A stretch of 54,810 nucleotides of DNA, the filler included, from Circinaria calcarea (Eukaryota), in the NCBI GenBank assembly GCA_051942165.1. It is 3 parts of 3 records of this genome, joined end to end, with 100 filler letters (N's around TTAATTAATTAA, not from the genome) between each part and the next. Parts side by side here need not be neighbours in the genome. Positions count along the whole stretch, not along the records: positions 1 to 18,310 come from JAVECS010000239.1; 2 more parts are not named here. One strand, written 5' to 3'. Made by a program: the position numbers and the translations under genes. The notes beneath the pieces are model-generated. The model was not told the origin of the DNA. It searched no databases and saw only the letters and a program-made list of their open reading frames with translations. Positions 1 through 18,410 of this stretch are shown here, piece after piece. The number at the start of each line of letters is the position of its first letter. Position 1 is the first letter of the stretch.

Positions 1-141
1 AAGATTTCAGAAAATATGGAGGATTAAGACCATTTTTACCTTTAACTTATTCAGTTATGCTAATAGCTTCTCTTAGCTTAGTAGCTTTCCCGTTCATGAC
101 AGGATTCTATAGTAAAGACTTTATATTAGAATCTGCTTATG
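1..141 (+). repeat. Terminal direct repeat, copy 1 (nad5 coding sequence)
   Basis: 1-141 is identical to 18170-18310 and encodes [16 protein letters not shown]...[10 protein letters not shown]. Confidence 0.97.
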
Positions 142-1460
142 TAGAAGGCATTAAATACTTTAAGGCCTATGGAGCTATGTTATTCGATGGTGATCTAGCA
201 AAGAAATCTATTAATCATAGGGTTCAATGAATAGATAAAAACCGAGATTATATAGTTAATTTTGAAAACAACGACATTATTGATAAGGCTGACCAGGATA
301 CTAAAGCTTGTTTTGTGTCCTTTTGTTTTGAGTATAAACGTTTTATCGAATTTATGAACAATTTGGAACAAGTCGAATTTAAAACTAATTTACCTATACA
401 ATTAGATGCAAGTTGTAATGGGTATCAGCATATTACACTGCTAACAAAGCAAAAAGCTTTGTTTGATAAACTTAATATTAGTCCTTCTACCAAGGATGAT
501 CATCCTCAGTATTTCTATGCTTATATGCTTATAAAGATGAACGAGCATCTTACTACTAGATTGGGTGGATCCGTGGAGCTAGATCCTTCTGAAAAGGAAA
601 GTTACCTAAGATTAATGAATAATGGTTTGACTAGAAAAAATGTAAAAAAATGTGTAATGACTAAGTCTTACAATGCTACATCCCCCAAAATGGCTGCTTA
701 TATTATTGAGCTTATGTATTCACATAAAAAGACCGTATAAGTGATAGAGTCAGATAACAAGGTTTTAAAATAAATTGAGGTTTATTCAACGGATGAGAAC
801 AGCACTGAGACATATATTACTAAAGAAGATGTATATACGTTTGTTAGAATGTTTAATGCAGTGTTGGATAGAGTTTTCCCTAAATTCAAATTCCTAAATG
901 ATTATACTAAAGCCATTGTTAATATATTTTCAAAATTAAATATACCTATACCTTGAACACTCTAGAGTGGAGCTCTAATTAGTCAAAGTTATTTTAACTA
1001 TAACTCTGTAAAGTTAAAACCTTTTAGTTTTATAAATTCGAAATACAGCTTTAGAACTATAATTAAGGATGAGTTTAGGACAGAGAAACAAAGAAGTTCT
1101 ATCATGCCGAATCTAATTCATTCTTTAGATGCTAGTTCCATAGCTATTTTGTACAGTTATTTAAGCAAAAATAAAATAACTGATATCTATACTGTACATG
1201 ATTGTTTTGCTGTAACCGCTAAAGTCGTGGAGACTTTAATTTCAGATCTAAAAAGTGTATATTTATACATATACACCGGGTCTGAATATATAACTAACTT
1301 AGATAATCATATTAAAGAAACAATAATTAGTCAGTTTGGAAAAGATAAATTCAGTTCAGACGGTAAATATGTTTATGTGGGTGAAAGTAAGAAAATACTT
1401 TTCCCAGATATTACATCTATAACTAAAGATAAGTCTTGCATTAAAGGACTAACTAAGGGG
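142..1460 (+). pseudogene. rpo: Linear-plasmid-type T7-like single-subunit RNA polymerase, C-terminal half (3' end approximate)
   Basis: One frame holds motif A PIQLDASCNGYQH, motif B RKNVKKCVMTKSYNA, and PNLIHSLDAS...YTVHDCF (motif C). In-frame stops: TAA 738, TAA 771, TAG 963. The N-terminal half is absent. Confidence 0.92.
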
Positions 1461-1680
1461 GAACCAGGCAAACTAGTAATTTCTGATCGTGACGTTATGA
1501 AGGAAAGACACCTTTGATGCAAGAATCTCATTTATTCTCATCTAACTTTTCTTCCTTTCGACGACGGGAGAGAACGCATTTTCTAGTCGAAAGTTTGATT
1601 CTGTAATCGCGCTTTTTTGCTTAATCAAACTCCTTTGAATTTAAGAGGTCTACTACTTACTGCAAATGTTCTTGATAATC

Positions 1681-1781
1681 TGTTATTTTTTGTCATTTTT
1701 TTGTATTTTATTTTTTTTATATACTGTGAACACAATACTAGTTTTTTTTAATTATCCATAAGAGACTAAATAAACCTTATT
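1681..1781 (-). repeat. Degenerate ~100-bp direct repeat, copy A (leader plus ATG on minus strand)
   Basis: Shares TGTTATT.TTTGTCAT, TGTATTTTA, ATATACTGTG.ACACAATACTAGTTTTTTT and TAAACCTTATT blocks with 2423-2529. Confidence 0.85.
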
Positions 1782-1802
1782 TATTTTACATTATTAACTG
1801 TT

Positions 1803-2438
1803 TTATCTTTTACGATTAATATGTTTGAAAAATCAACGTAATTTACGTGTTCGACGGAATAAGTTAGGTAACTCTTTCTCGAAATCCTTTTTAATTTCAG
1901 ATCAGATGCGTATGTTACGATCATATGTATTTTTAAATTCTTGGTAAGAACCAAATTCGTCTGAGTGTTGCTTTCAAATAATTCACAAAAATCTGCGTTT
2001 AGCCTTAGATTTAAAATCTTTTAAAGCAGGATTGTCACTTGTAATAGTATGATCCACTCTTTCAGACTGACTAGTTTGAAAGGGAGGATAATTAGAATGT
2101 GAACGTCTAGGTCTTTCATTAGACCTATCATCAGTTAAACGAGATGGATCTGGAAGTTCCCTTATCTCATGTAAAGACACATCTAACTTAGGGTAAACCA
2201 TTTCAAATATATCCATAATTAGAGGGCGTATAAAAGAAACTAAAAGACCAATAAGGAAAAAATCCTTAAAACTAGATAAATCGTAGCTAAAGTAATGGAC
2301 GATATATAACCTGACCGAGAAAGAAAGAACTAAAGTAATAGATAAGATAGCTAAGCTTCGAAGAGAAAATAAATTACGAATATTTGAAATCAACCTGGAT
2401 GCGCTATTATTATTATTATTTATGTTATTATTTGTCAT
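1803..2438 (-). CDS. Hypothetical 211-aa membrane protein (orf211), probably plasmid-derived
   Basis: The 151-aa track ORF reads through TGA codons to TAA at 1803-1805. It has two N-terminal hydrophobic segments and a Trp-rich basic C-terminus (RRFLWIIWKQHSDEFGSYQEFK...IWSEIKK), and lies between rpo and dpo. Confidence 0.7.
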
Positions 2439-2529
2439 TGTATTTTATGTTAATTATATATATACTGTGTACACAATACTAGTTTTTTTATTTCTAAATT
2501 AAATTACAAGGCACTAGCTAAACCTTATT
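2423..2529 (-). repeat. Degenerate ~100-bp direct repeat, copy B (leader plus ATG of orf211)
   Basis: Matches 1681-1781 and contains the orf211 start codon. Confidence 0.85.
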
Positions 2530-2647
2530 ATTTTCTTTTTACAACAATCGTTGGATATTAGGTTAAAGACACACTATGAGACAAATACATCCATGTAAAA
2601 GCCGTTCACTGCCTCCTATAATAAATAACAAAGTAAGATTGAGGTGA

Positions 2648-2673
2648 GGGGAGGGGAGGGGAGGGGAGGGGGG
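2648..2673 (+). repeat. (GGGGA)4GGGGGG G-tract array
   Basis: Five runs of four or more G separated by single A, in AT-rich DNA. Confidence 0.9.
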
Positions 2674-2685
2674 TTCACCCCTCTA

Positions 2686-4946
2686 TTACGCCACCAAATG
2701 GTGAATAGGGTAAGTGCTTATTGTACCAGTTTTAGTTCTAACGGGTAAAAGTCCTAAGTAATTGTGTTCAGGAGCTTTCACGTCACAGTAAAAAAAACCA
2801 AATAACTCTTCCAAGTTAGCTTTTTTATTTATGTACTCTTGTTTATGACATTGTAACCCAACCATATCATTCAAAGACACATAAGGGTATAGAGAATTTA
2901 CATCATAATAATATAAATTATTACCATAGGGTTTGTAAACTTCCGTATTCCCCCCATAATAACCTAATTTTATATCTTTATAAATTGCTCTTTTATTAAT
3001 ATGAGGAATGGGTTTATCTACACTTAAATAGTCTTTACTGAATATCTCATATGCCAATTTAGATATTGTTAGACATTTAGTCATTTTAACATCAAAATCC
3101 AAAAATAAAGTTCTATTTACTTTTACTAATACTTGATAAAGACTGATCAAATCTTTTGATAGATAAATCAATGATTCTTCTTTAAAATTTCAGATATCTT
3201 TCTTTAGACTATTATTATATACTTCTTGGTTAACTATTTTTGTGTTGTAATAATTGATGCTAGGTGTGGATCCTATGTAAAACAAAGTGTCTTTACTTGC
3301 AAATTTATGTGGGAAATCTCCTTTACTTACAGGTAGATCATACTTGATACACAATTCCTTTAAACTATCCGTTAAAATACAATAACTATCTAATATATTT
3401 ACTGCATATAATTTGTCATCTATCTTACGTTTAATAGTCAATTTTAGTATAACATCATCTCTACATACAATTTTTAATATATAAGGGTTGTTGTTTTTTA
3501 CTTTATTATATTCTAATATAGCTTTTATGATAAAAACACTATCAAACCTACCAAAATTATGAGCGTAAAATGTCGTACCACTATACTTAGGTCTAAGCAT
3601 TTCATCCACACAATTAAGTACTATTTCATCACTATTTAATGGTTTAGCATCAATGTAGTATAAAACAGGCTTATTATCCAAATTAGTTAAAAACCCTAAT
3701 GCATATACTTTAGCTAAATTATTTACATTATAAGTTTATAGATCTATGACTCCAATCCTAACATCCTCAATAATAGTAACTGTATCCACATAGTGTTCTT
3801 TTTTTATAGGTAATAAACTAATATTTTTATCACTAAAAACAATATTATTGTTCTCAATTAAAAATGTGTAATCTCCGAACTTTCTAGTATAAAGATTATT
3901 CCCTATATTAATATCCTCAACCTCACCTAAAAACACACCGTATATAGAATAAGCTTTCTTTATGAATTTATTTGTATTAATTATATCTATAATAGATATA
4001 ATGTCTACCCCCGCACATTTATCTGGAAAAATAGCTGTTTACTATGAAAAGATGGTGACTTTATTTTATCCGGTAATAAAGAATTATTTTTATTAAAGTT
4101 TTCTATAAAATCTATATATCCATCTTGATTAGGTTTTTTTACCAACGTTAATACACTATTAACTCTATTACCTTGTGTAAATACCTCAAGTGGTTTACCA
4201 TATTCAACTAAATCCAAAGTTAAGGGAAAATATGGAGATATTCTTTTTATATTGATATACTCCTTTTTAGATAGTTTAGGTTTAAGAACATCAATTCTTA
4301 ATTTTTCTAACTCTCCGTATACAACCTCTCTATATAATATTTGGACTAAGAGTACATCAATTTCACTTAAACGGTACTTGTCTAATGTAATAAACAACCT
4401 GGAAATTATAGTCTCTCTTAAAATGTTAAAGCTAAGACTATCTGCGTAGTTATCATAACTAAATGAAAATTGTTTATCTAACATAGCAAAATCATCTTCA
4501 TTATACCTAATTTTAATTAACATCTGATATTGTACTCTTACTTCCATATTTTCTATAATATATCTTGTGAATATATCTATATCTAGTAGTTCTTCGACAC
4601 TTAATCAAAAAAAAAAAAAAAATAATAACATTAATGTTTTAAATAAAACTGTTAAGTTATTTAAAACATTCTCCAGAAAACTGTCTTTTTGTGCTACACA
4701 TTCTGGGCAAAATAATACAGCTTCTGTTTCAAACTTTAGCTTTGGATATGATTTTTCCACTCTTAGTAATAACATAGATAGCATTAACAAGTGATTAGTC
4801 ATCTTGTATTTTCTTTTAATCTTTCTTTTTGGATTATCTTTATTAATAATGTTATTTTTTTTTTTATTTGGTGGGTTCCGCAATAGCTTATCTAATGAGG
4901 TTTTTAGGGATGTTGTTGCTTTATTAATTAAACCTTTACCTTTCAT
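2686..4946 (-). pseudogene. dpo: Linear-plasmid protein-primed family B DNA polymerase, 3'-truncated
   Basis: ExoI IGVIDL*TY (nonsense at the Glu position, 3736-3738), ExoII FYAHNFGRFDS, ExoIII YLSKD, then YYGGNTEVY and YYYDVNSLYP. Frameshift in a G-run near 4008. Homology ends after LPVRTKTG (~2723), so the later polymerase motifs are missing. Confidence 0.93.
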
Positions 4947-5313
4947 AAAGTTTATATTATCTACTCTTTAGAGTTCCATTTCACAACTATTACCTATAAT
5001 TTTACAAGTTGTAGACTATGTGAACCGCTTACCCGATGAAAGCTTTTTAAAGGAAAAATGACTTTATTAAGTTTTATTCTACCGTTAGCTCTTACTATAA
5101 TAACAGCTATGGGGATTGTTGGTAAAGAGATTACCACGACCGTTGGGCAAGCATCCAAAATTTACATGGAGTCTTTTGTAATTATGTTATAAAAGTTTCT
5201 TTTTTTTATAAGGCATGGTATAGTAAAATATACTATATAAGTATATTGACCTTTTAAAATTTATTTTAAAACTTTTGGGGATAAATTCTATTAATCCCTT
5301 TTTTTTTATTAAA

Positions 5314-7005
5314 ATCCTAATTTTTTCTCTTTTATCATTATTATTATCTAATGCCGTCACATTACGACGAGACAAATCTATTTTATATTCACGTATTACT
5401 ATAACTATCTTGGTTACCTCTTCTGTTCTAGCTCTTGAAAATCTAAATATGACATCCCTAGAAAAAGGGATAGGTTTGTATGGAGGTCTTTTTCATGCTA
5501 CATCAACTAGCCAAACTTTTCAAATATTTATCTTTTTAATAAGTGCTGCTATTTTACAATTAAGTGGTTTTTACCCTCGAAGAGTTTGAGTAAAAGAATC
5601 TTCAAGTTTTTCTAAACTATTTACATATAAATTTCTATATTTTAAAACAAAAATAATAAACAAAATGGGAGAACAATATAAAATAATTGAGTATCCCTTA
5701 ATTATTTTGTTTATAATAACTGGAGCTACATTTTTAGTATCTAGCAGTGATATAGTTTCTATTTTTTTGTCAATAGAGTTACAAAGTTATGGTTTATATC
5801 TGCTATCGACACTATATAGAAACTCGGAGTTAGCTACCTCCGCCGGTCTTACTTATTTCTTATTAGGTGGTTTATCTTCTTGCTTTATTCTTTTAGGTAC
5901 AAGTTTATTATATGCTAACTCAGGTAGTACTAGTTTAGATGGATACTATGTAATAACTAGTTTATCCGATTTAGCCCAAAATAATATTAATAATGTTATC
6001 TCTTGATCAAAAGCTAATTATCTGAATCTTTCTCTACTTATAATGTCAGTAGGTTTTTTATTCAAAGTTAGTGCCGCACCTTTTCACTTTTGAAGCCCGG
6101 ATGTTTATGATGCTCTACCTACTATAGTAACAACCTTTGTTGCAATAATCTCTAAAATATCTATTTTAATATTCTTATTTGAATTAGTTCACTTTACAAG
6201 TAATTCCTCTTTCGCCTTTAATTTTAATTGAACATCTAGCTTATTAATTAGTTCTTTATTATCTTTAATAATAGGTACAGTACTAGGTTTAACTCAATCT
6301 AGAATAAAAAGATTGTTCGCCTATAGTACTATATCACACATAGGATTTATATTATTAGCTTTAAGTATAAATACTTTAGAGTCTATTATAGCCTTTATTT
6401 TTTACTTAATGCAATATTCCATTGTAAATTTAAATGCTTTCATCTTATTAGTTAGTATAGGATTTTCATTATACCCATATACAAATGAGGATAAAAGCTA
6501 TGAAAAGTTATTAGATAGAAACAACTCTCCAATACAGCTTATTAGTCAAATAAAGGGTTATTTTTATCTTAATCCAGTTTTAGCTTTAAGTTTAGGGTTA
6601 ACTATCTTTTCCTTTGTTGGTATACCACCTTTAATAGGATTCTTTGCGAAACAAATGGTGCTAAGTGCTGCATTAGATAGTGGTTATGTTTTTTTAACTT
6701 TAGTAGCTATATTAACTAGTGTTATAAGTGCAGTTTATTATTTAAGTGTAATAAAACAAATCTTTTTTGATAAATTTGAATATAATTTAAATCCAGAATT
6801 TGAAGATCTTATATTACATGGCAGTATTTTAAAGAAAACTATTTTAAAAGAAAAAATAACATTTAAGGTTGAAAATATCGTCTTATCAAGTTCTTTAACT
6901 ATTACTATTTCTCTTTTAACTCTAATAATTTTATTATTTATCTTTAACCCCCAAGAATGATTAAGTATGGCTAATATATTAGCACTTATCATGTTTAATC
7001 CATAA
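5314..7005 (+). CDS. nad2: NADH dehydrogenase subunit 2 (no ATG at the expected start; ATC assumed)
   Basis: Continuous frame with TGA=Trp: [60 protein letters not shown]. Ends TAA directly before the nad3 ATG. Confidence 0.96.
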
Positions 7006-10000
7006 ATGACTAGTACAACATTCTTTTTTGTTTTTATACCGTTATTAGCCTTTATATTACTAGCTATTAACTTAATTTTTGCTCCACATAATCCTTATTC
7101 TGAAAAAGATAGTGCCTTTGAATGTGGTTTTCATTCCTTTTTAGGACAAAATCGAACTCAATTTAGTATCTCTTTCTTTATTTTCGCCTTATTATTCTTA
7201 CTTTTTGATTTAGAAATTTTATTAGTTTATCCTTATATAGTTAGTGCTTACAGTAATGACATGTATGGTTTATTGATTATGCTTATTTTTTTCGGAGTTT
7301 TAACCCTAGGTTTTGCATTTGAGTTAGGTAAAAATGCGCTTAAGATAGATAGTAGACAGATGTACAGTGTTGCTGCTAAACAGTCACAAGTTAAGAGTTA
7401 TTACTCTAGTTTTGCATATATACTACCTCTTACGATTTTGGACACATTAACTAATGCATTTAATTTTGTTATAGATAATACTAGTTTAAACTCTTATTTT
7501 TTTATTATATTTATTTTGTTATTAGTATTTTGTTTTTTACTTATCGCATTAAGCACATTTAGGATACTGGCTTCTATTCCAGTGCCAGTGTTAGATACAC
7601 GAAATGAAGCTTATGTTAAAAATAATAAAATAAAATATCGTCGTGTAAAAAGAGATAAAATCACCTCTATTAAGTTAGGTGATTTGGATAATGAGGTCCT
7701 TACTTATAGGGGTCGGGCTCTTATTCAAAATGGTAAGAAAGTGTATCCTCAGATTAAAAAAAATCCTAGTTTAAAATCAGATTCTAATTTTAAAAGATGT
7801 GTAAATCACATCTTTTCTGATAGATCTGTAATTAAATGGACACTATTAATAATTTTAAATATAGGTTTAATACCTTTAATAATGTTTATAGGTCTGGTGT
7901 GTTGCGGAAATAGCATTTTGGCTAGTCTAACTGAAACCTTAAGTTTGGAAACTTTGGATTCTAGCTTTTTAAATCTATTTAATTATGGCTTTAATTTAAT
8001 CATTTGTATTTATAAAAATTCTGATTTTATCATAGAAAGTTTTTTTGACTGTTTAAAGAGTAATCCTTGAATTGGTGTATTTTTCATCTTAAAATACAAT
8101 TTAATAAACATAATGACAATTAATTTATTTAGGAAAAAACCTACTAATAATAGTAATTTTCTGGTTTTTATTATTAGATTTATAATAAGTATTGTTATCC
8201 ATACGTGAAAGGATAGAAAATTCCTAGTCAAATATTTAGCGGTTATATCATCCTATAAAAAAGAATTTTTAAGTATATTGGCTATGTTGTGAATGTCCGT
8301 ATTTATAAACAGGGCTTTATACCATAATATGATGACAACAGATTACGATATAAATAATACATGATTGCAGCAATTTGATATGTTGTTTTCTACGTTTTGG
8401 ATCATTTCTATCACAGCTTATTGTCTATTTAAATTGTTTAGAGCCAAAAAGCTAGAAAATAAATCACCTTCATTTTTAGATTTACGTGAATTCACTAAGA
8501 GTCTTACTTTTATAAATTTCTTTTCTTGTTGTGTGATGTACTTTTTATGTTTATATTATATTTCACCATATTATATCTTAATATTTTCCTCTTTAGGATG
8601 TTTATCATTTGATACATTTGTAAACACATCCGGGTTAATCTTAAAATTTCATCCTGCCTTAAAATCTATTCATGCAATATTTGAATATAAATATTTTGCA
8701 AATTTTAAACGAAATACTTCTTTTTTGTATTTACATGAAAAGAGGCTATCTGGACCAGTAGATAAATTAGTCACGGTAATAAGATCACCAGTGTCTTTAA
8801 ACAAAAACATAGTTCTAAGACAAAATGCTAAAGCATTAAACAATGTTGCTAGTTTGCTTGTTGACAGAGGCGTATTTAAAGAGACTATATTATATGTAAA
8901 GCCATGTTTTGTATTTTCTGCTATTTCCGGTAAAAATATTTTTTCTATCAGTTCTAATAAGGGTAATACAGATTATATACATTTTGTTGAGACAGACGAA
9001 AATAAAAAGTCAGAATTATGTGATATATTAAAGATTTACAGCAAGAAAAACATATTCCAAATTCCATTTAGAAATATAGATTATTATTGTGTAGTAAAAA
9101 ACAGATGTATTATTACCAATTGTAATGATATGAAAAATGCCTTTCAGAATAAAGAAATTTTAGGTATTGGTAAAAAGATCCCAAATTTAAATATTATGAA
9201 AAATGCAATCGCCCCTTTAGATAACAAGAAGTTAGAAGATTGTCAAAAGTTACTTAAATTTGGTTTAAGAAGTCGTGATAATTTGCCAGTTTCTAATGAA
9301 TTATTATCTTACATTAAACCAAATAATAAGGATTATAGTTTGGAGGATCTGTCTGTTTATAATAAGTCATCACCTCCTTTTTTAAATATATTAAAGGGTA
9401 AAATATTTGATACTAATGATATGTTTATAAATGAAGTTGGGATGAATAATTTTTACAATGACATCATTGTAAATATGGTGCACACAAATTCTTTGGATTT
9501 ACAAAATATAAATAATGGGAACCTTTCCAGAAATGTTCATAAGAGCAGTGGTCTTTATTTGGATAGAAATAACAGATTAATTTATATTTTTTCAGAAAAA
9601 ACTTTAAATGCTTTAAATGCTAACCATGTTGAGATTGGCAATTTGTATTATAGCACAACAAAAAACGTTACAAAACGACTAGTAAAAGGAAAGCCCCAAA
9701 ATCCTTTGTATTATATTAGTTTTAAAACAAATACATATACTGAAGACAGTATAGCTTTATTTACTAAAGAAGAAAATGATTACATAAGGTCCGATTTATA
9801 CGGTAGCATTTTTAAGTTAGACCAGAGCGTAAAAAGTGAATTAGAAAATATTTACTACACTCCTGCAGCAAAGAGTAAATCTGCAGGGGTCTTTCATAAA
9901 TTAGATTTAACTAAGTCAATAGATAAAGAAAAACCATTATACTTTCGTCTTAAATTGGGTAATACTACTAAGTATGTACCTACCAATTATAAGATATGCA

Positions 10001-11664
10001 GAAAGGGACCTCTTATTCTCGCTAGTTCCGCATTTAACGAAGCTGAAAATATCTCATCACTAGAACTACAATCTGTTCAGTTATTGGCTCTAGAACTAAT
10101 GAATGATAAATACGATTCATTAGATTCTACACCTAGTGACTTATCATATTATAATATAGAAAAACATGATTTACCAGTAAATTTTGTTCTCGAGAATTAT
10201 GAATTAATATATAAAATGGATCGGAATATAAAAGATATTATAGAAAATCCCAGAGAAAAATATAAAAATCTATATTATAGTTATAATTATGGTAATCATA
10301 TATTAATGCACCACAATATGTATACTGAAAAACCTATCAATTTATATCAAAAAAAATTACTTGAGAATAATACTGTGAAATTTGTAGAAAACGAATTTAG
10401 TGGTTGCATAATTAGTCTAGATAATGAAATTAAAAGCAAATTAAAAAGTTTTTGAGTACAACAAAAAAAAAGTTTGCCTTATAAGCCGTTTGATTTATCC
10501 TTCAAATATAAATCCGATTACCCTATCTATACAGAAGGATTTTACCCAGAAGATAATACTAATTATGTCTTAACTGATGCTAGCACAAAAGTGCATAATG
10601 TGTCTTTAATACTATCTGTAAATTATCAATCTCCTATTTATAAAGACCCATCTCAAATACCTATAGTCCAGTTTCCTATACCTGCTCCCCTGGAAATTCC
10701 GGAAAATGCTAATACAAGGAAAAGAAGGGGAAACAGTAGTGCCAGTACGGTGGATACTGAAACTTCTACTTCAGACCTTAGCTCTCCGCCTCAAACTATT
10801 GAAAGTTTATCAGAAGGAAATGTTGATCCGCCGAGAAATACATCTTCTCTTAATTTTAATGATTTTAATGATTTTAATGATTTGGGGCCAAATTATGATG
10901 ATTTATACGATGCAACACCAGCAACGAGCCCTAGGATTAGACCATTAACCACTGATAATCTTAACAATTTTACTAATAATACGAATTTATTGCCAGATAT
11001 TGGTATGATAGAGGAAAGGGATAATATGGATAATTTTTTAAATCCAGAGTTAGGAATAGTTGATTTAGATCCCAATTTTGATTTTAATTTAGGAATGGAT
11101 CACAATTTTGATTTTAATTTCGGAATGGATCACAATTTTGATTTTAATTTAGAAATTGATCACAATTTTGATCACAATTATGATCTCAATTTAGTATTTG
11201 ATCCCAATTTAGAATTTTATTCTGGTCAAAATTTAGAATATGACCCGTCTATAAATACCATATTTAATAAAATAGATATTACTTATAAATTTTTCAAAGA
11301 TCTAAATGGTAATTCAAAATTTGCTCTATATGATGCAGAGGATACTAGCTGTATAAGACTAAAATCATTATACCCTGAGGATAATTGGATAATAGTTCCA
11401 ACAATAGATAATACATATCCTGAAGCAGTGTTAGTTTGCAAAAATTCTGCAGAGATTGTAGATACTTTTAGGCCGGGACATAAAAGACAAAACAGAATAA
11501 TCTGCCCATGACCTAATGAGGACGCATTAGCAGTTATTACAAATGAAGGCTTTAGTTTAACACACTTAGGTTTAGAAATAGAACCTTATTATCATAAGCT
11601 AGGTCAAAAATTTGTTAAGTTAAATATACCTGAACCTTATAGTGATACAGTGTTAAACATTTAA
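7006..11664 (+). CDS. nad3: NADH dehydrogenase subunit 3 with a ~1,430-aa in-frame C-terminal extension (1552 aa)
   Basis: Residues ~1-118 are typical Nad3 (APHNPYSEKDSAFECGF, FLLFDLEILL, FELGKNALKIDSRQ). Track ORFs 7006-8070, 8365-10455 and 10474-11511 share a frame and are separated only by TGA. First TAA/TAG is at 11662-11664. Confidence 0.92.
11068..11172 (+). repeat. 30-bp coding tandem repeat, ~3.5 copies (D[PH]NFDFN[LF][GE][MI])
   Basis: GATC(C/A)CAATTTTGATTTTAATTT... units start at 11068, 11098, 11128 and 11158, followed by degenerate copies. Confidence 0.92.
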
Positions 11665-12946
11665 TTTTGTTTTTTGTTAGATTAGATATTACTTATCTAC
11701 ATTTAAATAGAAAAACACTATGTTATCATAAGTAATATGTTGGGGGGTAAATATTTATAATATTACTAACACGATATGTTTTCCGCGAACTTTTTAATAG
11801 TGCACTATTTAACTGGCACATTACCACAATAAAAGTAAAGAGCATATTTAACTTTTTATCTCTTAAATTTCACCCTTAGTTTTTATCTAAACTCTTATTT
11901 TATATGAGATCTTTATGCATAAATGATCGCATTAGCTTGTTTAGTCTTCAGACTAAACAAGCCACAACTAGTTTCTTTTACTCTAGATATTTCATCAAAT
12001 TGCTTTTTGATTAGAGGTTATTATATTTTTTTTTATTTTTTTTTATTATAATATTATGTATCGTAACACTAGTAGTTAGTAGTAACAACTGTAAATTATA
12101 ATAAACTTGATCCAGGATCTAAACCTATTTATAAGCCTCTAAATACTTATAGAGATCTAATTCATAGACAAATATGGGTACGTTTTTATGTACATATGCA
12201 TATGGGTAGATGTTGCACTTGTTTTATGCCTTATAAACGTGATGAATATTGAGCATTTCATTGAATAGTTGAAGGATGTAATGCTACAACTCATATAGCT
12301 TATCCTCATAGTACACCGATTAGCCCTAATTTCGTACCTAGACCTAAGCTATAAAAACTAAAAAAAAAAAAATAAAAAAAAAAAATAAGTTTTCTTCCTA
12401 TTACTCTTCCTCTTCCTCTTCTTCTTCCTCTTCCCTCATCATAGTTTTTATTTAACAAAAAACTATGATGACCGGACGAGAGTTTTCCGGGAATTTATTT
12501 AGACTTCTAAAAAAAAAATTCTCCAAATTACATTAGTGGAGTTAATTAATAACTAAAAAAAAAAATAAAATTTAGTTATTAATTTATGACAAGATTCTAC
12601 AGAGATCTACATCCCTTCGTCCAATAGACGTTGTGATAAGGACAGTAGAGTTAATAAAGATAATATTGACAACAGTCGAGATCAATTAAGATTTAATCGT
12701 GACAATCTTGATATTCGCGGCAATTATATTGGTAATGGTTATGTACTGAGGATTGATCCTCCCACTTTTTATTTTGGAAAGTAAAAAGAAAAGGAAAAGG
12801 AAGGAGGGAGTGTAAATCCCTCCTCTCCTCTGAGGTTCGATTCCTCTAGATCTATCACTTATGGTTTAAGTGATATTAAACTCTTAAAGGCTTTTGGAAG
12901 ACTTTTAAGATCTCTTTTTTTGTTATTAAAAAAGAGAACATATTCA

Positions 12947-13468
12947 ATGAATGTATTTAAAAAAATAAATAAAAAAAAAATTTTTAAAATGTATATAAAC
13001 TTATATTCAAAATTATCCAGTCGTTTCGATAAATTAACTTCTTCCTTTACTAATATCAATAGCAATACTGATATGGATCTTACAGTACTAGTGGGGTTTT
13101 TTTTATTATTAGTAGCTTGTGTTTTACTTATCATTGTAGGCGTACTTTGAATAGTGGCTTCTACTAATAAACAAGAAGAAACGTCAGTATTGGAATCACG
13201 TCCTCAACATATTGTTATGAATCCTCGTAGAAGAAGACCTAGATGTGTAAAACACAACTGAATGGATTGTACTCTATCTGAGTTTGATAATGAGGATTTT
13301 AATTTCTCGAATATTTTGCAGTGTAATAATAGTAGATGTGTTCACTCTTTTGTAGAGCCTAGGGAAAAGCCTACTTTTAAAAATACTGATAACTTTCAAA
13401 GATGTATTAATCTAGACTGTAACAAGTTACGTTGTGCAACTTGTAAAAGGTATAACGTAAATACCTAA
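12947..13468 (+). CDS. Hypothetical 173-aa protein: one transmembrane helix plus a Cys/His-rich domain
   Basis: Track ORFs 12920-13150 and 13262-13468 are joined by TGA=Trp. TM segment VLVGFFLLLVACVLLIIVGVLWIVA; C-terminal domain with 8 Cys and 2 His. Start codon uncertain. Confidence 0.7.
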
Positions 13469-13700
13469 AAAAGGTATTATTTAAAAGTCTCTAGTTTAAC
13501 ATATATACTTTTTTATTTGTCTATTTAGACAAATAAAAATATAAACTAGGGTAGTGTTATGTTACTAATAACATGATACTAAGAACATTTTCACCAGAAA
13601 AGCTTTTAAGTTGTATCAAATAACTGATCTATAGGTCAGGAGTCCGTATATGCTACTATTCACAGCATAGTTATAAATGGTTCGTTTCGGTTATAATATT

Positions 13701-13800
13701 ATGACTTCAGTTTTTTTTTTTCTTCTTAGGTTTAATTCCTTTAGCCTTTGTTATAGCTTTTTCTGCTTTAGCATTAGGTGTTGCATCAAGTGTGGCTTAA
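13701..13800 (+). pseudogene. atp9: Probable degenerate atp9 remnant
   Basis: ATG-A-CTT-CAG (MLQ with one extra base), then GLIPLAFVIAFSALALGVASSVA*, resembling Atp9 GLIGAGVGIGVVFGALILGVARNP...VA*. Located between nad3 and nad4L. Confidence 0.5.
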
Positions 13801-14000
13801 CACGTTGTGTTTCTTGCCATTATCTTATTAAAATTAACTATCTTAATAAATAAAAAAAATATTTTTTTTTTATTAAGGAGGTTAAAGGTGTAAAGGTGGA
13901 GGGTAAAGATATTTACTCTAAAGATCTAGTTAGTTTTGGGGCTTACTTATAAGCCCAATAAGGGTTACACGTTATTAAATAAAACATAAACATAAAAAAA

Positions 14001-14270
14001 ATGAATTTATCACTAATACTTTTTTTAATAGGAATCTTAGGATTCGTTTTAAATAGAAAAAATATAATTTTAATGCTTATTTCAATTGAAATAATGCTTT
14101 TGGCTATTACGTTTTTAATCTTGGTAAGTTCACTTAGCTTTGATGATATATTAGGTCAAACATATGCTATCTATGTTATAGCAATAGCTGGAGCTGAATC
14201 TGCGATAGGTTTAGGTATCTTAGTAGCTTTTTATAGATTAAGAGGTAGTGTTGCAATAGAATATAAATAA
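14001..14270 (+). CDS. nad4L: NADH dehydrogenase subunit 4L
   Basis: [33 protein letters not shown]...[25 protein letters not shown] overlap with nad5. Confidence 0.98.
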
Positions 14271-17200
14271 TGTATCTAGCCATAATAGTTTTACCATTAC
14301 TAGGATCAATAGTTTCCGGCTTTTTTGGTAGAAAAGTCGGAGTTACAGGAGCACAATTAATAACATCTTTATCCGTTATTGTAACTACATTGTTGGCTTC
14401 CATTGCCTTTTTCGAAGTTGGTTTAAATAACATCCCTGTATCTTTAGAATTATTCAGATGAATTGATTCTGAGTCACTAAATGTGTCATGAGGTTTTCAT
14501 TTTGACTCTCTAACAGTATCTATGTTAATACCCGTATTAATAGTTTCTTCTTTAGTACATATATACTCCATAGGATATATGAGCCAAGATCCACATAATC
14601 AAAGATTTTTTAGCTATTTAAGTTTATTCACTTTCATGATGATTGTTCTAGTAACAGCTGATAACTTTTTATTAATGTTTGTAGGTTGAGAAGGTGTTGG
14701 AATATGTTCATATCTTTTAGTAAGTTTCTGATTTACTAGAATAGCTGCAAATCAAAGTTCCATCTCTGCCTTTTTAACTAACAGAGTGGGGGATTGCTTT
14801 TTAACTATTGGTATGTTTGCTATATTGTGATCCTTTGGTAATGTAGACTATAGTACTGTGTTTTCACTCGCTCCTTATGTTAGTGAAAATATTGTTACTA
14901 TTATAGGTATTTGCCTTTTAATTGGTGCTATGGCTAAAAGTTCTCAAGTTGGATTACATGTTTGGTTACCTATGGCTATGGAAGGTTGGTGTAACCGGGC
15001 TTTCCTTAAACTTCACTATATGCGGGAACATCCTGTTTTAATTCTTGGTCCACTCAAGAGATATTTCTTGCTCGGAAAAATTCAAGAAGAGGGACAATCC
15101 GCAGGAAACTTAACCTCTACAGGTTTAGGTTCCTCAGAGACTACACGTGAAGCATTTAGATTAAAATATATTAATTATTAATCCTTATTTATAGGGTTTG
15201 TGTAAGTATATGAATGATTTGTCATAAATAAAGACGGATATTTATAATTTAAAGTTAAAACTACCAGCTTATATGCTCAAGTTTTATTTTATATTAAAAA
15301 AACTTAGGTTTTGGTGTTGTAAGAATACAAGACAAAAATAATAATCTTATTTGTTTTAGAGTAAGAGATAAAAACGGGTATTTAAAAAGAATATCAGTAT
15401 TTAATGGCAATATCTTTTTAGATGAAAGAAAAAAGCAATTTAGATTGTTTTTAACTGCATATAATAAAATATATAAAGAAAACATTCTATATCTGGATAA
15501 CAATAGCAAACCAGATCTATCTAATTTTTGGCTTTATGGATTTACTGACGCAAAAGGTTGTTTTACTTGTTCAATTACTTTTTTTAAAAAATACAAGCAT
15601 ATAAGCAAGGGATTAGTGAGATTAAGATATATATTATCCCCCAAGATAATTATCATCCTCTTAAATATCTGGCTTACATGTTAAATGGTAAAATACATTA
15701 TATTAAAAGCTATGAAGGTTATAATGTAACAGTTAATACAAGTAAATTATCACGAATTATTAAATATTTTAATCTTCATTCTTATAAACTCCAAAGTCTA
15801 TAGTATACTATAAAATAAATAAAATGTATATGTTAGTGGTAGACAAAACCCATTTAACCTTTGAAGGATTTAATCTAATTAAAAGATATAAGAAAAATCT
15901 AAATAGATTAGATAAAAGAATCTAATATAATTATAATATAAATGAAGATATAGTCCGAACAGTTATTAAAGTAGCTGAGTGTTTTTAATTAATATATATA
16001 TATTAAAAACCAACAGATTTGCCTACACCTGTTTCTGCACTGATACATGCTGCTACAATGGTAACCGCAGGTGTATATTTATTGATGCGTACATCTCCTT
16101 TAATAGAATATAGTTCAACAGTTTTAATCTTATGTTTATGAATAGGAGCTATTACTACAGTATTTAGTTCTCTTATTGGCCTATTCCAACAAGATATTAA
16201 AAAGGTTATAGCCTATTCCACTATGAGTCAATTGGCTCGAGTATATAATTATGTATTAATTATATACAGGCATCAAGCTATATGCGTAGAAGTTATATGT
16301 AAAAATATAATCAATTCGCAGATAACCAAAGCTCATGGTTATATTTATAACCATATTAGTATTAATCTTTTTAATTCATCTCTCACACTCATGTGACAGT
16401 ACTTTTATATTATGTTACATATAATTATGTCAGTAAGATGAAAGATTAATATTATAAGTAAGTTAGTAGGAATCTCAGAGGCCATACGCTTGATATTAAT
16501 CTATTTAAACTATAATATACTATTAGGTTTATATATGTTTAAATCTATTCATTTATTTATTTCAAAAATATCTCTAAAATATTCATATAGTACTTATAAT
16601 CATAATATAAAAAAGACGATAGATAATCCATTTAATGAATGGTTATCCGGATTAATAGATGGAGATGGTTATTTTATATTAACAAAAAAAGGGTATGCTA
16701 GCTGTGAAATAACTATGGATATTCGAGACAAAAAAGCTTTATATGAAATAAAACAAAAATTCGGCGGTTCTATAAAAACAGTTGCAAATGCTAATGCTTT
16801 AAGATACAAATTAAGACACAAAAAAGGCTTAATTTCTTTAATAAATAATATAAACGGTAATATTAGAAACCCTATAAGATTATTACAAATGAATAAATTA
16901 TGTGTTAAATATGGAATAGAATTGAAATATTCTAATTGTTTAACATTTAATAACGGATGATTAAGTGGGTTTATTGATAGTGACGGTTCAATATATTATA
17001 ATGAAAAATCAGGTCAAGTGTATTTAAGTATAACCCAAAAAAATAAATATCTGTTAGAACCTTTTATAAAATTATATGGTGGAAGAATAGATATTCTTAG
17101 TCCTAAAGTAGAAGCATTTAAATACATTATTTATAGAAAGTCTGAACTATTTTATCTTATTGATAAATATTTTATAAACTATCCTTTGAAAACAGAAAAA

Positions 17201-18310
17201 ATGAAAAGGTTAAATTTAATAAAGCAATTTTATTCTGTAAGGATTAACACACAAAGTAAAGATATAAATAAACTTAATGAATGAATAGCATTTAAACATA
17301 AATGAGATATATACAAAGATTAATAAAGAAATGGTCCAAATATTTTAATAATATTGCTAAATTTTAGAAAAAAAGCTTATTCCTTATATTTAGCTATCTT
17401 AATTCACTTTTATTCAATGCTATTAGATAGTAAGTTACTTGCATCGTCTAACACTTCTGAAGGTTCATATAAGAATAAACCATCCATTTACGAAGAAGAA
17501 ATGGATGAAAAAAGAACTAGCCTCTTAACAAAGGAGGAACTAGAGGATGAAAGATACCTATATCCAGAAGAAGACGAGGAGACTATAAAAAAAAACAAAT
17601 AAATGATAGATAAGCATAATGAAAGAATAAAAAAAGAGGAAGCTTGAGATCCAGAGGGGCATTATAATGTTCCTACTGCTAAGAGGCGTGAAGTAAGGGA
17701 TCCAACTTTTTTAGATGACGACTCTGTAAAAGGTAGTATAGATGACAGGAAGGATAGGGGTAAATTAGGTGAGTTAGTTGTTAAAAATAGATCTAAAAAA
17801 TCTTTTTATACAGCAAGCTCTGAGGAAACAATTAAAGGACGATCAAATGACGATTCAGCATATGATATACCTGATATTGATTTGGATGATTTCTAAATAG
17901 TTTTCATCTATTACCTTATACTGACTTTAATGATTTTGGAGTTGTTTTCTATATGGATAAACTAGTAATCCAAATTCTCAATTATGTGCTAAAATATAAG
18001 CTTTTATCTCTAAATAATAATGTTAAAATATTGCAATTAGGAATGATGGTTATAGCAGTAGGTTTATCATCTTATAACATTGCTTTATTTCATCTTGTTA
18101 ATCACGCCTTTTATAAAGGACTTTTATTCTTAGGTGCAGGTGCGGTAATTCACGCAGTTTCGGATAACCAAGATTTCAGAAAATATGGAGGATTAAGACC
18201 ATTTTTACCTTTAACTTATTCAGTTATGCTAATAGCTTCTCTTAGCTTAGTAGCTTTCCCGTTCATGACAGGATTCTATAGTAAAGACTTTATATTAGAA
18301 TCTGCTTATG
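14270..18310 (+). CDS. nad5: NADH dehydrogenase subunit 5, 5' 400 codons; exons 14270-14986, 16022-16228, 18034-18310
   Basis: [71 protein letters not shown]. The normal 3' third is absent from this contig. Confidence 0.96.
14987..16021 (+). mobile_element. Group I intron after nad5 nt 717, with a degenerate LAGLIDADG ORF
   Basis: Exon ends in T and intron ends in G. Core motifs AATCCGCAGG, TCAGAGACTACA, AAGATATAGTCC. Eroded endonuclease motifs (FIGFV*..., [12 protein letters not shown]) with stops and frameshifts. Confidence 0.92.
16229..17323 (+). CDS. Intact double-motif LAGLIDADG homing endonuclease/maturase, in frame with nad5 exon 2
   Basis: Open from the splice site to TAA 17321-17323 with TGA=Trp. 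Motifs [13 protein letters not shown] and [13 protein letters not shown]. Confidence 0.92.
16229..18033 (+). mobile_element. Group I intron (IB-like) after nad5 nt 924
   Basis: Exon ends AGT and intron ends TTG before CAATTAGGAATG. Core motifs TTCGCAGATAACC, ATCTCAGAGGCCATACG, AAAGAAATGGTCC. Confidence 0.92.
18170..18310 (+). repeat. Terminal direct repeat, copy 2
   Basis: Identical to 1-141. Confidence 0.97.
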
Positions 18311-18410
18311 NNNNNNNNNNNNNNNNNNNNNNNNNNNNNNNNNNNNNNNNNNNNTTAATTAATTAANNNNNNNNNNNNNNNNNNNNNNNNNNNNNNNNNN
18401 NNNNNNNNNN
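18311..18410. other. Artificial contig linker
   Basis: N-run + TTAATTAATTAA (stops in all six frames) + N-run. Confidence 0.98.

What the first reader, a model, noticed from the sequence alone, without database searches (positions are those of the whole stretch)
7006..11664. Giant nad3: a complex I subunit fused to a ~1,430-aa unknown protein
Seen: with TGA=Trp, nad3 has no TAA/TAG for 4,659 nt. The six in-frame TGAs (8068, 8206, 8290, 8362, 10453, 11509) explain the track's fragmentation. After the Nad3 core come roughly 8-9 more hydrophobic segments (to ~8620), a long Lys/Asn-rich soluble region, a Pro/Ser/acidic linker, D-x-N-F repeats and a ~150-aa terminal domain. I recognise no LAGLIDADG, GIY-YIG, RT or polymerase motif in it. 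Known: filamentous ascomycete Nad3 is typically ~120-140 aa. Inference: a 1,552-codon frame is very unlikely to stay open by chance in DNA this AT-rich, especially with neighbouring plasmid genes decaying. It may be a maintained polyprotein cleaved to free Nad3, or a selfish/cargo gene using nad3 translation.
Basis: partly seen in the sequence, partly recalled or inferred. Interest (0 to 1): 0.9.

Follow-up and report, generated by a model that had tools for sequence, protein, structure and literature searches.

The report
Giant accessory gene fused to nad3
In this fungal mitochondrial DNA the small respiratory gene nad3 has no stop codon and runs straight into a 1,400-codon, fast-evolving membrane-protein gene of an unnamed family, the largest case seen here of a habit that is common but unexplained in related soil and lichen-type fungi.

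Summary
Window 7006-11664 is one open frame of 1,552 codons under code 4, with six TGA=Trp codons. It starts with a complete Nad3. The five other frames carry 52-156 stops, and shuffled sequence never stays open beyond 170 codons.

The frame is neither an assembly artefact nor a nuclear copy. A database protein from a relative (P0020) has the same Nad3 (122/122 identical) joined to the same extension. Contigs from other samples bridge the junction.

The extension (aa ~246-1552) belongs to an unnamed family found only in metagenomic fungal mitochondrial DNA. It has a 6-7-helix membrane module, a conserved soluble domain and variable C-terminal parts. Other members sit behind nad3, or behind 5' pieces of nad3 or cox3.

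Long in-frame nad3 tails are common in this clade: 7 of 117 loci, and 697 database proteins. Their sequences fall into at least 51 unrelated groups.

My best reading (0.55) is an accessory, wandering gene that is translated by read-through from nad3. Its function is unknown, and both structure models were too poor to use.

Stop-less nad3 is already in print for lichen fungi, and this scan has met similar fusions in other genomes. This cargo family and its size are new.

The parts
5275..7005 (+). nad2 (576 aa); its stop abuts the nad3 ATG at 7006
   Evidence: Pfam Proton_antipo_M, E 4.2e-57. The sequence reads TAA then ATG at 7003-7008.
7006..7419 (+). Complete nad3: three-helix core plus native C-terminal tail (aa 1-138), with no stop codon at its end
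   Evidence: Pfam PF00507 on aa 16-113. Aligns to solved ND3 7zm7_3 over aa 2-133. Residues 1-122 are 122/122 identical to P0020. The normal tails of 110 related loci end 4-48 codons after SRQ.
7420..7740 (+). Poorly conserved linker (aa 139-245) with one strong hydrophobic helix (aa 165-183) and a basic stretch
   Evidence: Hydropathy. It is 83% identical to P0020 but absent from P0002. One RNA-library contig skips 7467-7799 (333 nt, in frame). Another has indels of +3, -3 and -6, plus a -1/+1 pair. A third has a 1-nt deletion in the G run at 7709.
7741..8685 (+). Membrane module of the family (aa 246-560): 6-7 hydrophobic segments, four TGA=Trp codons
   Evidence: 52-65% identical to P0002 and 77-81% to P0015. 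About 25-36% identical to the distant members P0018 and P0011 (alignment). P0015 was called from the GTG at the equivalent of 7741.
8686..9585 (+). Conserved soluble domain shared by all family members (aa ~561-860; motifs KRLSG, VDRGVFK, LYVKP, SGKNIFS, YYC, ILGIGKK, IVNM)
   Evidence: Alignment A1. BLASTP against P0011 gives 28% identity over aa 600-840, E 6e-14. The representative search hit P0006, P0011 and P0013. No Pfam, NCBIfam, PHROGs or PDB-sequence match.
9586..10695 (+). Central soluble region (aa 861-1230), the best conserved part among close relatives
   Evidence: 77% identical to P0002 and 79% to P0003. Fragments P0008 and P0010 match it. AF2 mean pLDDT was 35 for the model of aa 565-1235, so it was not usable.
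10696..11235 (+). Acidic Pro/Ser then Asn/Asp/Phe low-complexity region (aa 1231-1410, net charge -25) with about five copies of a 30-nt repeat at 11068-11221
   Evidence: Composition. Repeat family D1. Length variants in other samples skip 60, 62 or 77 nt. 46% identical to P0002.
11236..11664 (+). C-terminal domain (aa 1411-1552) and the only in-frame stop
   Evidence: 77% identical to P0002. Also found in the short fragments P0007 (52%) and P0009 (48%), with invariant LYP, W, C and WP.E.AL columns. AF2 mean pLDDT 46, not usable.
14001..14270 (+). nad4L, the next conserved gene. The nad3-nad4L interval is 6.6 kb here against roughly 1.2-2.7 kb in relatives
   Evidence: ORF list. blastn synteny with 12 loci. 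cox2, which fills this interval in 42 of 66 loci, is absent from the window.

Best explanation
The frame is a composite of four parts:
- A complete nad3 (aa 1-138, native tail included) that has lost its stop codon.
- A variable ~110-aa linker with one membrane helix.
- From about aa 246, a member of an unnamed, fast-evolving family of fungal mitochondrial accessory genes. This part has a 6-7-helix membrane module and a conserved soluble domain.
- Lineage-specific C-terminal parts: here a central domain, an acidic repeat and a ~140-aa end domain.

The accessory gene is extra DNA lying between nad3 and nad4L. I think it has no translation start of its own and is made by ribosomes that start on nad3 and read on. 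Family members elsewhere use the same trick, carrying a copied 5' piece of nad3 or cox3. Nad3 would then either be freed by proteolysis or work with the tail attached at its matrix-side C-terminus.

Shown here: the open frame, the family, the recurrence of fusions, and the extra DNA relative to synteny.

Inferred: translation as one chain, processing of the product, and any function.
For: **The frame and junction are real.**
- 0 stops in 1,552 codons, against 52-156 in the other frames.
- P0020, from an independent assembly, has Nad3 122/122 identical followed by the same extension at 77-83% identity up to the first TGA.
- A DNA contig (X2, 7220-7627) and RNA-library contigs (X7, 7077-7887; X5, 6955-7466 joined to 7800) cross the junction.

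**The open frame is selected over long distances.**
- P0002 (1,399 aa) is 65% identical over aa 252-1552 and is also uninterrupted.
- 3.9% of single-base changes in this frame create a stop. Neutral drift at 10-20% divergence would give 15-30 stops, so P(0) < 3e-7.
- Database fragments begin and end at the window's TGA positions: P0020 ends before W355, and P0003 ends before W1150.
- The tail uses 6 TGA against 3 TGG for Trp.

**The gene piggy-backs on host genes.**
- P0002 starts with a nad3-like piece; 0 of 2,000 shuffles reach its alignment score.
- P0011 starts with COX3 residues 2-36, E 2.8e-4.
- P0125 is nad3 + cox3 fragment + family module + a haem-dependent oxidative N-demethylase-like (HODM) domain. 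The family HMM hits it at E 2.3e-166.

**nad3 is a recurrent capture site.**
- 7 of 117 metagenomic nad3 loci read on for 100 or more codons.
- One of them (L045) reads into a class-III aminotransferase, Pfam E 6.5e-68.
- 697 database proteins of 246-2,000 aa carry this Nad3. The tails of 117 of the 120 listed, plus the window's tail, fall into 51 BLASTP clusters.

**Frame-keeping indels in the linker.** The events seen are +3, -3, -6, a -1/+1 pair and -333.

**Extra DNA.** The nad3-nad4L interval is 6.6 kb here against about 1.2-2.7 kb in 12 syntenic loci.
Against: **No protein or mapped-transcript evidence.** Contigs from RNA libraries cannot show a single transcript and may contain DNA. In Umbilicaria pustulata the stop-less nad3 frame is covered by three separate transcripts (PMC7186782, passages read). 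That favours RNA processing over read-through.

**Weak constraint on the sequence.** Among the 40 best-supported differences printed (592 further differences were not shown):
- The tail has 15 nonsynonymous, 4 synonymous and 1 stop-creating change. The stop is 8455 G>T at codon 484, in run X1.
- This matches the neutral expectation of 21% synonymous.
- It differs from nad2+nad3, which show 6 nonsynonymous and 14 synonymous (Fisher p 0.0036).

**Frame-breaking indels in some contigs of relatives:** -1 at 7709, +1 at 8558 and -1 at 10817.

**Alternative start and truncation.** P0015 was called from an internal GTG (equivalent to 7741) and has a different, shorter C-terminus.

**Ascertainment.** The fusions were found because they are in frame, so their being in frame is partly built into the search.

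**No functional clue.** Nothing came from Pfam, NCBIfam, PHROGs, PDB sequences, the ESM Atlas or AF2.
Confidence: 0.55

Rival explanations
1. There are two gene products from one frame. The nad3 mRNA is cut near the end of the native nad3 tail and is translated without a stop codon. The downstream gene is translated on its own from an internal start such as the GTG at 7741. On this reading the in-frame continuity is tolerated rather than used.
For: - In U. pustulata the stop-less nad3 frame is covered by three transcripts (PMC7186782, passages).
- The Ramalina paper cites yeast work in which 3' processing removes encoded stops of nad4 and nad5 (PMC13706191; I saw only the citing passage).
- P0015 was called from the GTG equivalent to 7741.
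- The linker at 7420-7740 is the least constrained stretch. It carries a 333-nt deletion variant and a 1-nt deletion variant.
- P0002 lacks the linker altogether.
Against: - Four of five indel events seen in the linker keep the frame.
- RNA-library contigs cross the junction.
- Family members that are not behind a whole gene carry a 5' piece of nad3 or cox3 including its start region. This suggests they cannot start translation unaided.
- No stop has accumulated in the 107-codon linker, either in the window or in P0020.
Confidence: 0.27
2. The tail has been taken into service by the host. On this reading it is a lineage-specific accessory arm of complex I, or another inner-membrane protein, held at the matrix-side C-terminus of ND3.
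For: [quoted passage not shown] The ND3 C-terminus is therefore a structurally tolerated attachment point.
- That tail is retained here.
- The open frame is kept in two lineages that are 35% diverged.
- The central and C-terminal domains are 77-79% conserved.
Against: - The substitution pattern looks neutral, and one relative carries a stop.
- The C-terminal parts are swapped in P0015, P0018 and P0011/P0125.
- The tails on nad3 in related fungi fall into 51 unrelated clusters. That looks like cargo turnover, not a conserved subunit.
Confidence: 0.1
3. The tail is a decaying relic: a dead inserted gene whose frame merely happens to be still open, with no product that matters.
For: - 15 nonsynonymous changes against 4 synonymous, plus 1 stop, among the sampled differences.
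- Frame-breaking indels in contigs of relatives.
- A truncated variant, P0015.
- The neighbouring plasmid polymerase genes are in pieces.
Against: - 0 stops in 1,414 tail codons, against 52-156 in the other frames.
- P0002 is also open over about 1,300 aligned codons, where 15-30 stops would be expected under neutrality.
- Distant members at 25-33% identity still share a domain, with E-values down to 2.4e-27.
- Codon-position GC pattern resembles that of the core genes.
Confidence: 0.06
4. The feature is an assembly artefact or a nuclear copy of mitochondrial DNA.
For: - The window joins AT-rich and GC-rich DNA.
- The mitochondrial contig's two ends are identical over 141 nt.
Against: - The GC shift lies at an artificial spacer (N runs around TTAATTAATTAA at 18311-18410). 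These are therefore separate contigs.
- The junction and tail recur in independent data: P0020, and contigs in runs X1, X2, X5 and X7 at 88-99% identity.
- Six in-frame TGA codons fit only the mitochondrial code.
Confidence: 0.02

Closest known systems
Stop-less nad3 (and cox1, nad4, nad5) with long stop-free intervals in lichen-forming fungi: Umbilicaria pustulata, Usnea mutabilis and Parmotrema ultralucens (PMC7186782), and Ramalina (PMC13706191). I read passages of both papers, section 3.3 of the Ramalina paper, and two supplement passages of PMC7186782.
   Same: - nad3 has no TAA/TAG at its conserved end.
- The conserved core looks normally constrained.
- The downstream part has no database match.
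- How translation ends is unknown.
- Relatives of the window occur in soil, biocrust, rock and moss samples.
   Different: - The passages I read give no nad3 interval length. The stated intervals are 134 to more than 300 codons for cox1 and more than 100 for nad5. Here the interval is 1,433 codons.
- Those papers did not report that the downstream part is a conserved gene family with relatives in other genomes.
- I did not establish the window's taxon.
Mobile-ORF gene hybrids at the 3' ends of atp6, atp9, cox2 and nad3 in Glomus sp., and atp6 in Allomyces (PMC3630166, passages read).
   Same: - A foreign ORF is inserted at the 3' end of a core mitochondrial gene, nad3 included.
- In some cases it is in phase with the core gene and co-transcribed with it.
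- nad3 length is highly variable among relatives because of such inserts.
   Different: - Those ORFs are LAGLIDADG or GIY-YIG endonucleases that bring a replacement C-terminus and leave a duplicated native C-terminus downstream.
- Here there is no endonuclease domain and no second nad3 C-terminus.
- The native tail is retained upstream of the insert.
[quoted passage not shown]
   Same: A gene without its own start is expressed by reading on from a resident gene. Two products may come from one frame.
   Different: No intron was detected here, although Rfam also missed the nad5 introns. The partner is an orphan membrane protein, not an endonuclease, a maturase or a second core subunit.
Chimeric ORFs of plant mitochondria (CMS type).
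   Same: 5' pieces of core genes (here nad3 in P0002, cox3 in P0011 and P0125) are joined in frame to novel hydrophobic sequence.
   Different: Different kingdom. No phenotype is known. The ORF is far larger and is conserved between species.
Accessory enzyme genes in fungal mitochondrial genomes (class-III aminotransferase and N-acetyltransferase in Annulohypoxylon and Phialocephala; PMC6140425 and PMC7902536, passages).
   Same: Non-core genes reside in fungal mtDNA. One related locus (L045) has such an aminotransferase fused to nad3. P0011 and P0125 carry an HODM-like enzyme domain.
   Different: The window's tail has no recognisable enzyme domain.

Membership tests
NADH dehydrogenase subunit 3 (Nad3/ND3, Pfam PF00507) | Profile match above the curated cut-off over the three-helix core | tested here: met
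   PF00507 scores 89.1 bits against a cut-off of 23.3, on aa 16-113.
NADH dehydrogenase subunit 3 (Nad3/ND3, Pfam PF00507) | Full-length alignment to solved ND3, including the TMH1-2 loop with its conserved Glu-Cys | tested here: met
   7zm7_3 aligns over aa 2-133 at E 2.2e-43. The SAFECGFHSF stretch is conserved.
NADH dehydrogenase subunit 3 (Nad3/ND3, Pfam PF00507) | Usual length of about 115-150 aa, with a stop shortly after the tail | tested here: not met
   The frame is 1,552 aa. 110 of 117 related loci stop 4-48 codons after SRQ.
Unnamed family of fungal mitochondrial membrane-protein ORFs (P0002, P0003, P0004, P0015, P0018, P0011, P0125, P0013) | Significant sequence similarity over the membrane module and the following soluble domain | tested here: met
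   - phmmer hits run from E 5e-298 to 8e-6: P0003, P0004, P0005, P0006, P0011, P0013.
- BLASTP against P0002 gives 65% identity over 1,337 columns.
- The HMM built from A1 hits P0125 at 2.3e-166.
Unnamed family of fungal mitochondrial membrane-protein ORFs (P0002, P0003, P0004, P0015, P0018, P0011, P0125, P0013) | Mitochondrial location and attachment to a core gene or a piece of one | tested here: met
   - Whole nad3: window, P0020/P0015, P0125.
- nad3 piece: P0002.
- cox3 piece: P0011, P0125.
- For P0018 I have only a contig of the same length as that of a long Nad3, P0021.
Homing-endonuclease mobile ORFs (LAGLIDADG / GIY-YIG) forming 3' gene hybrids | An endonuclease domain | tested here: not met
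   No Pfam hit in aa 121-1552 at E up to 5. The LAGLIDADG ORF in the nad5 intron of the same contig is detected.
Homing-endonuclease mobile ORFs (LAGLIDADG / GIY-YIG) forming 3' gene hybrids | A duplicated host C-terminus downstream of the insert | tested here: not met
   tblastn of Nad3 aa 1-138 against the window finds only 7006-7419. No relevant direct repeat was found.
Mitochondrial linear-plasmid genes (B-type DNA polymerase, phage-type RNA polymerase) | A polymerase domain | tested here: not met
   None in the tail. Such domains are found at 3-740, 1104-1586 and 2686-3681 on the same contig.
Stop-less nad3 of lichen-forming fungi | [quoted passage not shown] | tested here: met
   The core is 122/122 identical to P0020, and only 2 synonymous differences were listed in nad3.
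Stop-less nad3 of lichen-forming fungi | The host is a lichen-forming (Lecanoromycetes) fungus | not tested
   The other contigs in the window are fungal nuclear DNA. Relatives occur in soil, biocrust, rock and moss runs. No taxon was assigned.

The most novel reading that the evidence does not exclude
A previously undescribed class of giant (about 1,000-1,400 aa), fast-evolving, modular inner-membrane proteins is encoded in the mitochondria of soil and lichen-type ascomycetes. These proteins can be made only as C-terminal continuations of core respiratory genes or of copied 5' pieces of them. In this fungus a ~160-kDa chain would be synthesised as part of ND3. It would either stay tethered to complex I at the NDUFA5-bridge side or be cut off there. 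nad3 would thus serve as a general 'landing pad' that lets foreign or newly arisen genes be expressed in an organelle where every mRNA needs its own translational activator.
Probability: 0.25. Interest if true: 0.8.

Novelty: new variant of a known kind. Interest (0 to 1): 0.6.

Why it matters
How a new gene could ever become expressed there is therefore an open problem. The authors who described stop-less nad3 in lichen fungi say they cannot explain how its translation ends.

This locus is the most extreme case seen here. It adds three things:
- The downstream part is a real gene family, with members that are 25-65% identical in other genomes.
- Members of that family carry 5' pieces of nad3 or cox3.
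- nad3 carries dozens of unrelated tails across related fungi.

Together these make the idea of 'expression by read-through from a core gene' directly testable with RNA ends and proteomics in one organism.

There are also practical consequences:
- Annotation pipelines will mis-size nad3 or split this frame at its TGA codons.
- nad3 length is a poor quality check in these fungi.

Tried and rejected
**Structure**
- AF2 on aa 565-1235 (10-row alignment) gave mean pLDDT 35. AF2 on the C-terminal 148 aa (4 rows) gave 46.
- Both models are too poor to use, so I ran no fold search.

**Function by sequence**
- Pfam, NCBIfam, PHROGs and PDB sequences gave nothing on the tail.
It gave no usable hit for two parts of the homologue P0002.

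**More DNA of relatives**
- The search for related loci in metagenome contigs failed with A1, which had no conserved stretch. With A2 it found 589 pattern matches, none confirmed.
- As a result no dN/dS could be computed on homologues. The only substitution data are the 40 differences printed by read laying; 592 more were not shown.

**Intron hypothesis**
- Rfam found nothing relevant at the gathering threshold or at E<=1.
- It also missed the nad5 introns on the same contig, so this result is uninformative.

**Transposon-like ends.** No terminal inverted or direct repeats flank the tail.

**A cox2 remnant or a second nad3 C-terminus inside or after the tail.** None found.

**Linker as a degenerate copy of the nad3 5' end**
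- The helix-to-helix score was reached by 1 of 2,000 shuffles for the window, but by 355 of 2,000 for P0020.
- The NPS..SDSNF stretch was reached by 13 of 2,000 shuffles.
- I judged this too weak and dropped it.

**Other checks that added nothing**
- No whole genome is held for this window.
- No tRNA genes were found in the window.
- Cluster look-ups gave no organism or product names for family members.
- Parts of the tail without cover in the RNA runs, and the small word shares of all 20 holder runs (0.06-0.16), are not evidence of anything.
- The loose end in run X1 at 7410 could be an allele without the tail, but 29 letters cannot show that.
- Earlier-findings look-ups by place and by sequence found nothing.

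Full report
**What the window is**

The window is several contigs joined by artificial spacers: N runs around TTAATTAATTAA at 18311-18410 and 36597-36696.

- Contig 1 (1-18310) has 25-31% GC and is fungal mitochondrial DNA.
- The other two contigs have about 45-55% GC. They carry fungal nuclear-type genes: a CPSase-ATCase protein, a YVC1-type channel, a non-LTR retrotransposon and a TPR protein.
- The GC shift is therefore not a nuclear insertion of mitochondrial DNA.

Contig 1 carries, in order:

- a nad5 fragment fused in frame to a plasmid-type RNA polymerase (3-740), and a second polymerase piece (1104-1586);
- B-type DNA polymerase pieces on the minus strand (2686-3681);
- nad2 (5275-7005);
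- the frame in question (7006-11664);
- nad4L (14001-14270);
- nad5 exons (14270-14986, 16022-16237, 18034-18310), with a LAGLIDADG intron ORF.

- It has no TAA/TAG, while the other five frames have 52-156. In 200 shuffles the longest open run never exceeded 170 codons.
- Only Nad3 is recognised by Pfam, on aa 16-113.
- Solved ND3 of C. thermophilum (146 aa) aligns to aa 2-133.
- I scanned public metagenome contigs for the Nad3 motif FELGKNALKIDSRQ and obtained 117 loci. In 110 of them the stop comes 4-48 codons after SRQ, with tails such as MFTLNNNNKS..ISSFKK.
- The window keeps an equivalent tail (MYSVAAKQSQVKSYYSSFAY) and then runs on. The native Nad3 therefore ends at about aa 138, and the stop is simply missing.

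**It is not an artefact**

- P0020 (356 aa, from a different public assembly) has Nad3 residues 1-122 identical to the window. It then has the same extension at 83% identity (aa 123-250) and 77% (aa 251-355). It ends just before the position of the window's first TGA.
- P0015 overlaps P0020 with the same sequence and continues from there.
- I laid contigs of four public runs on 5200-12400 at 88% likeness or better. They cover the whole stretch in the two DNA runs and 19 and 21 of 30 bins in the two RNA-library runs.
- A DNA contig spans 7220-7627, and RNA-library contigs span 7077-7887 and 6955-7466 joined to 7800.
- These are contigs of relatives (mostly 90-99% alike). They cannot prove a single transcript, and RNA libraries may contain DNA.

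**What the tail is**

Searches of 5.8 billion and 1.84 billion proteins found few relatives, none of them named:

| Query | Result |
|---|---|
| aa 130-1552 | 1 hit among 6,401 candidates |
| aa 353-1552 | 12 hits at E<=1e-3 |
| alignment A1 | 6 hits among 7,998 candidates |
| cluster look-up | no product names; sources ENA, Logan, JGI |

- P0002 (1,399 aa) is 65% identical over aa 252-1552 and is uninterrupted.
- P0003, P0004, P0005, P0014 and P0020 are fragments whose ends coincide with the window's TGA codons. This is as expected if they were called with TGA as a stop.
- Distant members (P0018/P0006, P0011, P0013, P0125; 24-36% identity) share the membrane module and the soluble domain at aa ~561-860. 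They have other C-terminal parts.
- P0011 and P0125 end in a haem-dependent oxidative N-demethylase-like (HODM) domain.
- P0015 has yet another C-terminus that is not present in the window.
- The family is therefore modular.
- The tail gave no match in Pfam, NCBIfam, PHROGs or PDB sequences. The ESM Atlas gave none for two parts of the homologue P0002. The two AF2 models were unusable, with mean pLDDT 35 and 46.

**How family members are attached**

- The window and P0020/P0015 follow a whole nad3.
- P0125 (1,218 aa) is a whole Nad3, then a COX3 N-terminal piece (..NNFQQPHPFHLVSPSP..), then the family module.
- P0011 begins with that COX3 piece: E 2.8e-4 against yeast COX3 residues 2-36.
- P0002 begins with a diverged copy of the Nad3 N-terminus (..HNLYPKKDSAFECGF); 0 of 2,000 shuffles reach its score.
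- A gene that turns up behind the start regions of different core genes looks like a gene that depends on them for expression.

**nad3 is a hot spot**

- Of the 117 loci, 7 read on for 100 or more codons after SRQ: 544, 350, 323, 213 and 167, plus two that run off their contigs. None of these tails resembles the window's.
- One tail (L045) is a class-III aminotransferase with four TGA codons.
- A search with Nad3 aa 1-140 for longer proteins returned 697 proteins of 246-2,000 aa at E<=1e-10. The 120 listed are 74-98% identical to the query and 248-1,281 aa long.
- I located the motif in 117 of those 120. Their tails, plus the window's, form 51 BLASTP clusters. The window groups only with P0020 and P0125. 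94 of the 118 tails have at least one hydrophobic 19-mer.

**The tail is extra DNA**

- In the 12 best-matching loci, nad2-nad3 (75-78% identity) and nad4L-nad5 (82-86%) are syntenic with the window. They lie about 1.2-2.7 kb apart, against 6.6 kb here.
- Nothing in 7450-13900 matches them except 91 nt in one locus.
- In 42 of 66 loci with enough flank, cox2 follows nad3. The window has no cox2.

**Selection**

Over long distance the frame is clearly protected. 3.9% of single-base changes in the tail create a stop. Neutral drift at 10-20% divergence would therefore give 15-30 stops over the ~1,300 codons aligned with P0002, yet none is seen in either lineage.

Over short distance the picture is different. 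Among the 40 best-supported differences printed (592 further differences were not shown):

- The tail has 15 nonsynonymous, 4 synonymous and 1 stop-creating change. The stop is 8455 G>T at codon 484, in run X1.
- nad2+nad3 have 6 nonsynonymous and 14 synonymous (Fisher p 0.0036).
- The synonymous share in the tail equals the neutral expectation of 0.21.

Contigs of relatives also show frame-breaking indels (-1 at 7709 in a G run, +1 at 8558, -1 at 10817). These sit beside frame-keeping ones: +3, -3, -6, -333, a -1/+1 pair and a +2/-2 pair. Some of these may be errors in low-depth contigs.

My reading is a fast-evolving accessory gene that is kept open in some lineages and is decaying in others.

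**Mechanism**

I commit to translational piggy-backing at 0.55. Ribosomes would start on nad3 and read through the linker into the accessory gene. Nad3 would either be released by proteolysis or carry the tail at its matrix-side C-terminus. In C. thermophilum the native ND3 tail forms a tether into the NDUFA5 bridge (PMC9699679, passages).

The main rival (0.27) is RNA processing that yields a stop-less nad3 mRNA and a separately translated downstream gene. In U. pustulata the stop-less nad3 frame is covered by three transcripts, and editing does not create a stop (PMC7186782, passages).

The remaining rivals are host domestication (0.10), a relic (0.06) and an artefact (0.02).

**What is known already**

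- Stop-less nad3 is reported for U. pustulata, Usnea mutabilis and Parmotrema ultralucens (PMC7186782). It recurs in Ramalina together with stop-less cox1, nad4 and nad5 (PMC13706191, passages and section 3.3). Both papers leave the mechanism open.
- nad3 hybrids with in-phase endonuclease ORFs are known in Glomus (PMC3630166, passages).
- In-frame intron ORFs and cox1/cox2 single frames are known precedents (PMC10448965 and PMC5626475, passages).
- Seven full-text searches found no description of this family or of a nad3 frame of this size. Subscription journals are not covered, and apart from two passages of the PMC7186782 supplement I did not read supplementary tables.
- This scan has reported nad3, nad5, nad1 and cox2 fusions to orphan membrane-protein genes in other genomes. 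None of those shares sequence with this one.

**Verdict**

This is a real feature: the largest instance seen here of a recurrent but unexplained phenomenon, with a new cargo family. I class it as a new variant of a known kind, with interest 0.6.

Noticed in passing
window 1-141 and 18170-18310: The mitochondrial contig's first and last 141 nt are identical, so it closes on itself as an 18,169-bp circle. That circle would hold only nad2, nad3+tail, nad4L, the first ~400 codons of nad5 and plasmid polymerase remnants. It would have no tRNA, rRNA or cox2. It could be a real sub-genomic or plasmid-recombinant circle, or a loop in the assembly graph.
   Followed up: partly
window 3-740: A second in-frame capture on the same contig. 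nad5 codons (homologous to about aa 355-419 of a relative's Nad5) run without a stop into a plasmid-type RNA polymerase (Pfam RNA_pol on aa 48-237). If the contig is circular, nad5 itself is truncated and fused to it.
   Followed up: partly
window 1104-1586, 1803-2438, 2686-3681 and 4005-4946: Integrated linear-plasmid remnants (RNA polymerase and B-type DNA polymerase in pieces, plus two ORFs without Pfam matches) lie directly upstream of nad2. Related loci have a cluster of 9-12 tRNA genes there instead. The window has no tRNA gene at all.
   Followed up: partly
L045:4369-6354 (minus strand): A related metagenomic mitochondrial contig has nad3 fused in frame to a class-III aminotransferase (662 aa, Pfam E 6.5e-68, four TGA codons). 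At least six database proteins share this architecture or cluster with it (P0056, P0059, P0071, P0086, P0118, P0137).
   Followed up: partly
P0125 (1,218 aa) and P0011 (984 aa): Family members carry a haem-dependent oxidative N-demethylase alpha-subunit-like domain (PF11927) at the C-terminus and a COX3 N-terminal fragment before the membrane module. An enzyme domain of this kind in mitochondrial DNA is unusual.
   Followed up: partly
window 11068-11221: About five copies of a 30-nt tandem repeat encode D(H/P)NFDFNLGM units. Contigs from other samples differ here by 60, 62 or 77 nt, so the repeat number is polymorphic.
   Followed up: partly
window 23413-28429: A non-LTR retrotransposon on the second contig (endonuclease-reverse transcriptase and RVT_1 domains in the 25104-27257 ORF). 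It has a strong A-over-T strand bias and flanking ORFs without Pfam matches.
   Followed up: no
window 12920-13468 (+) and 12859-13425 (-): Two overlapping ORFs of 182 and 188 aa lie in the 2.3-kb spacer between the tail's stop and nad4L. The plus-strand one has a hydrophobic helix and a Cys-rich end. Neither has a significant family match.
   Followed up: no
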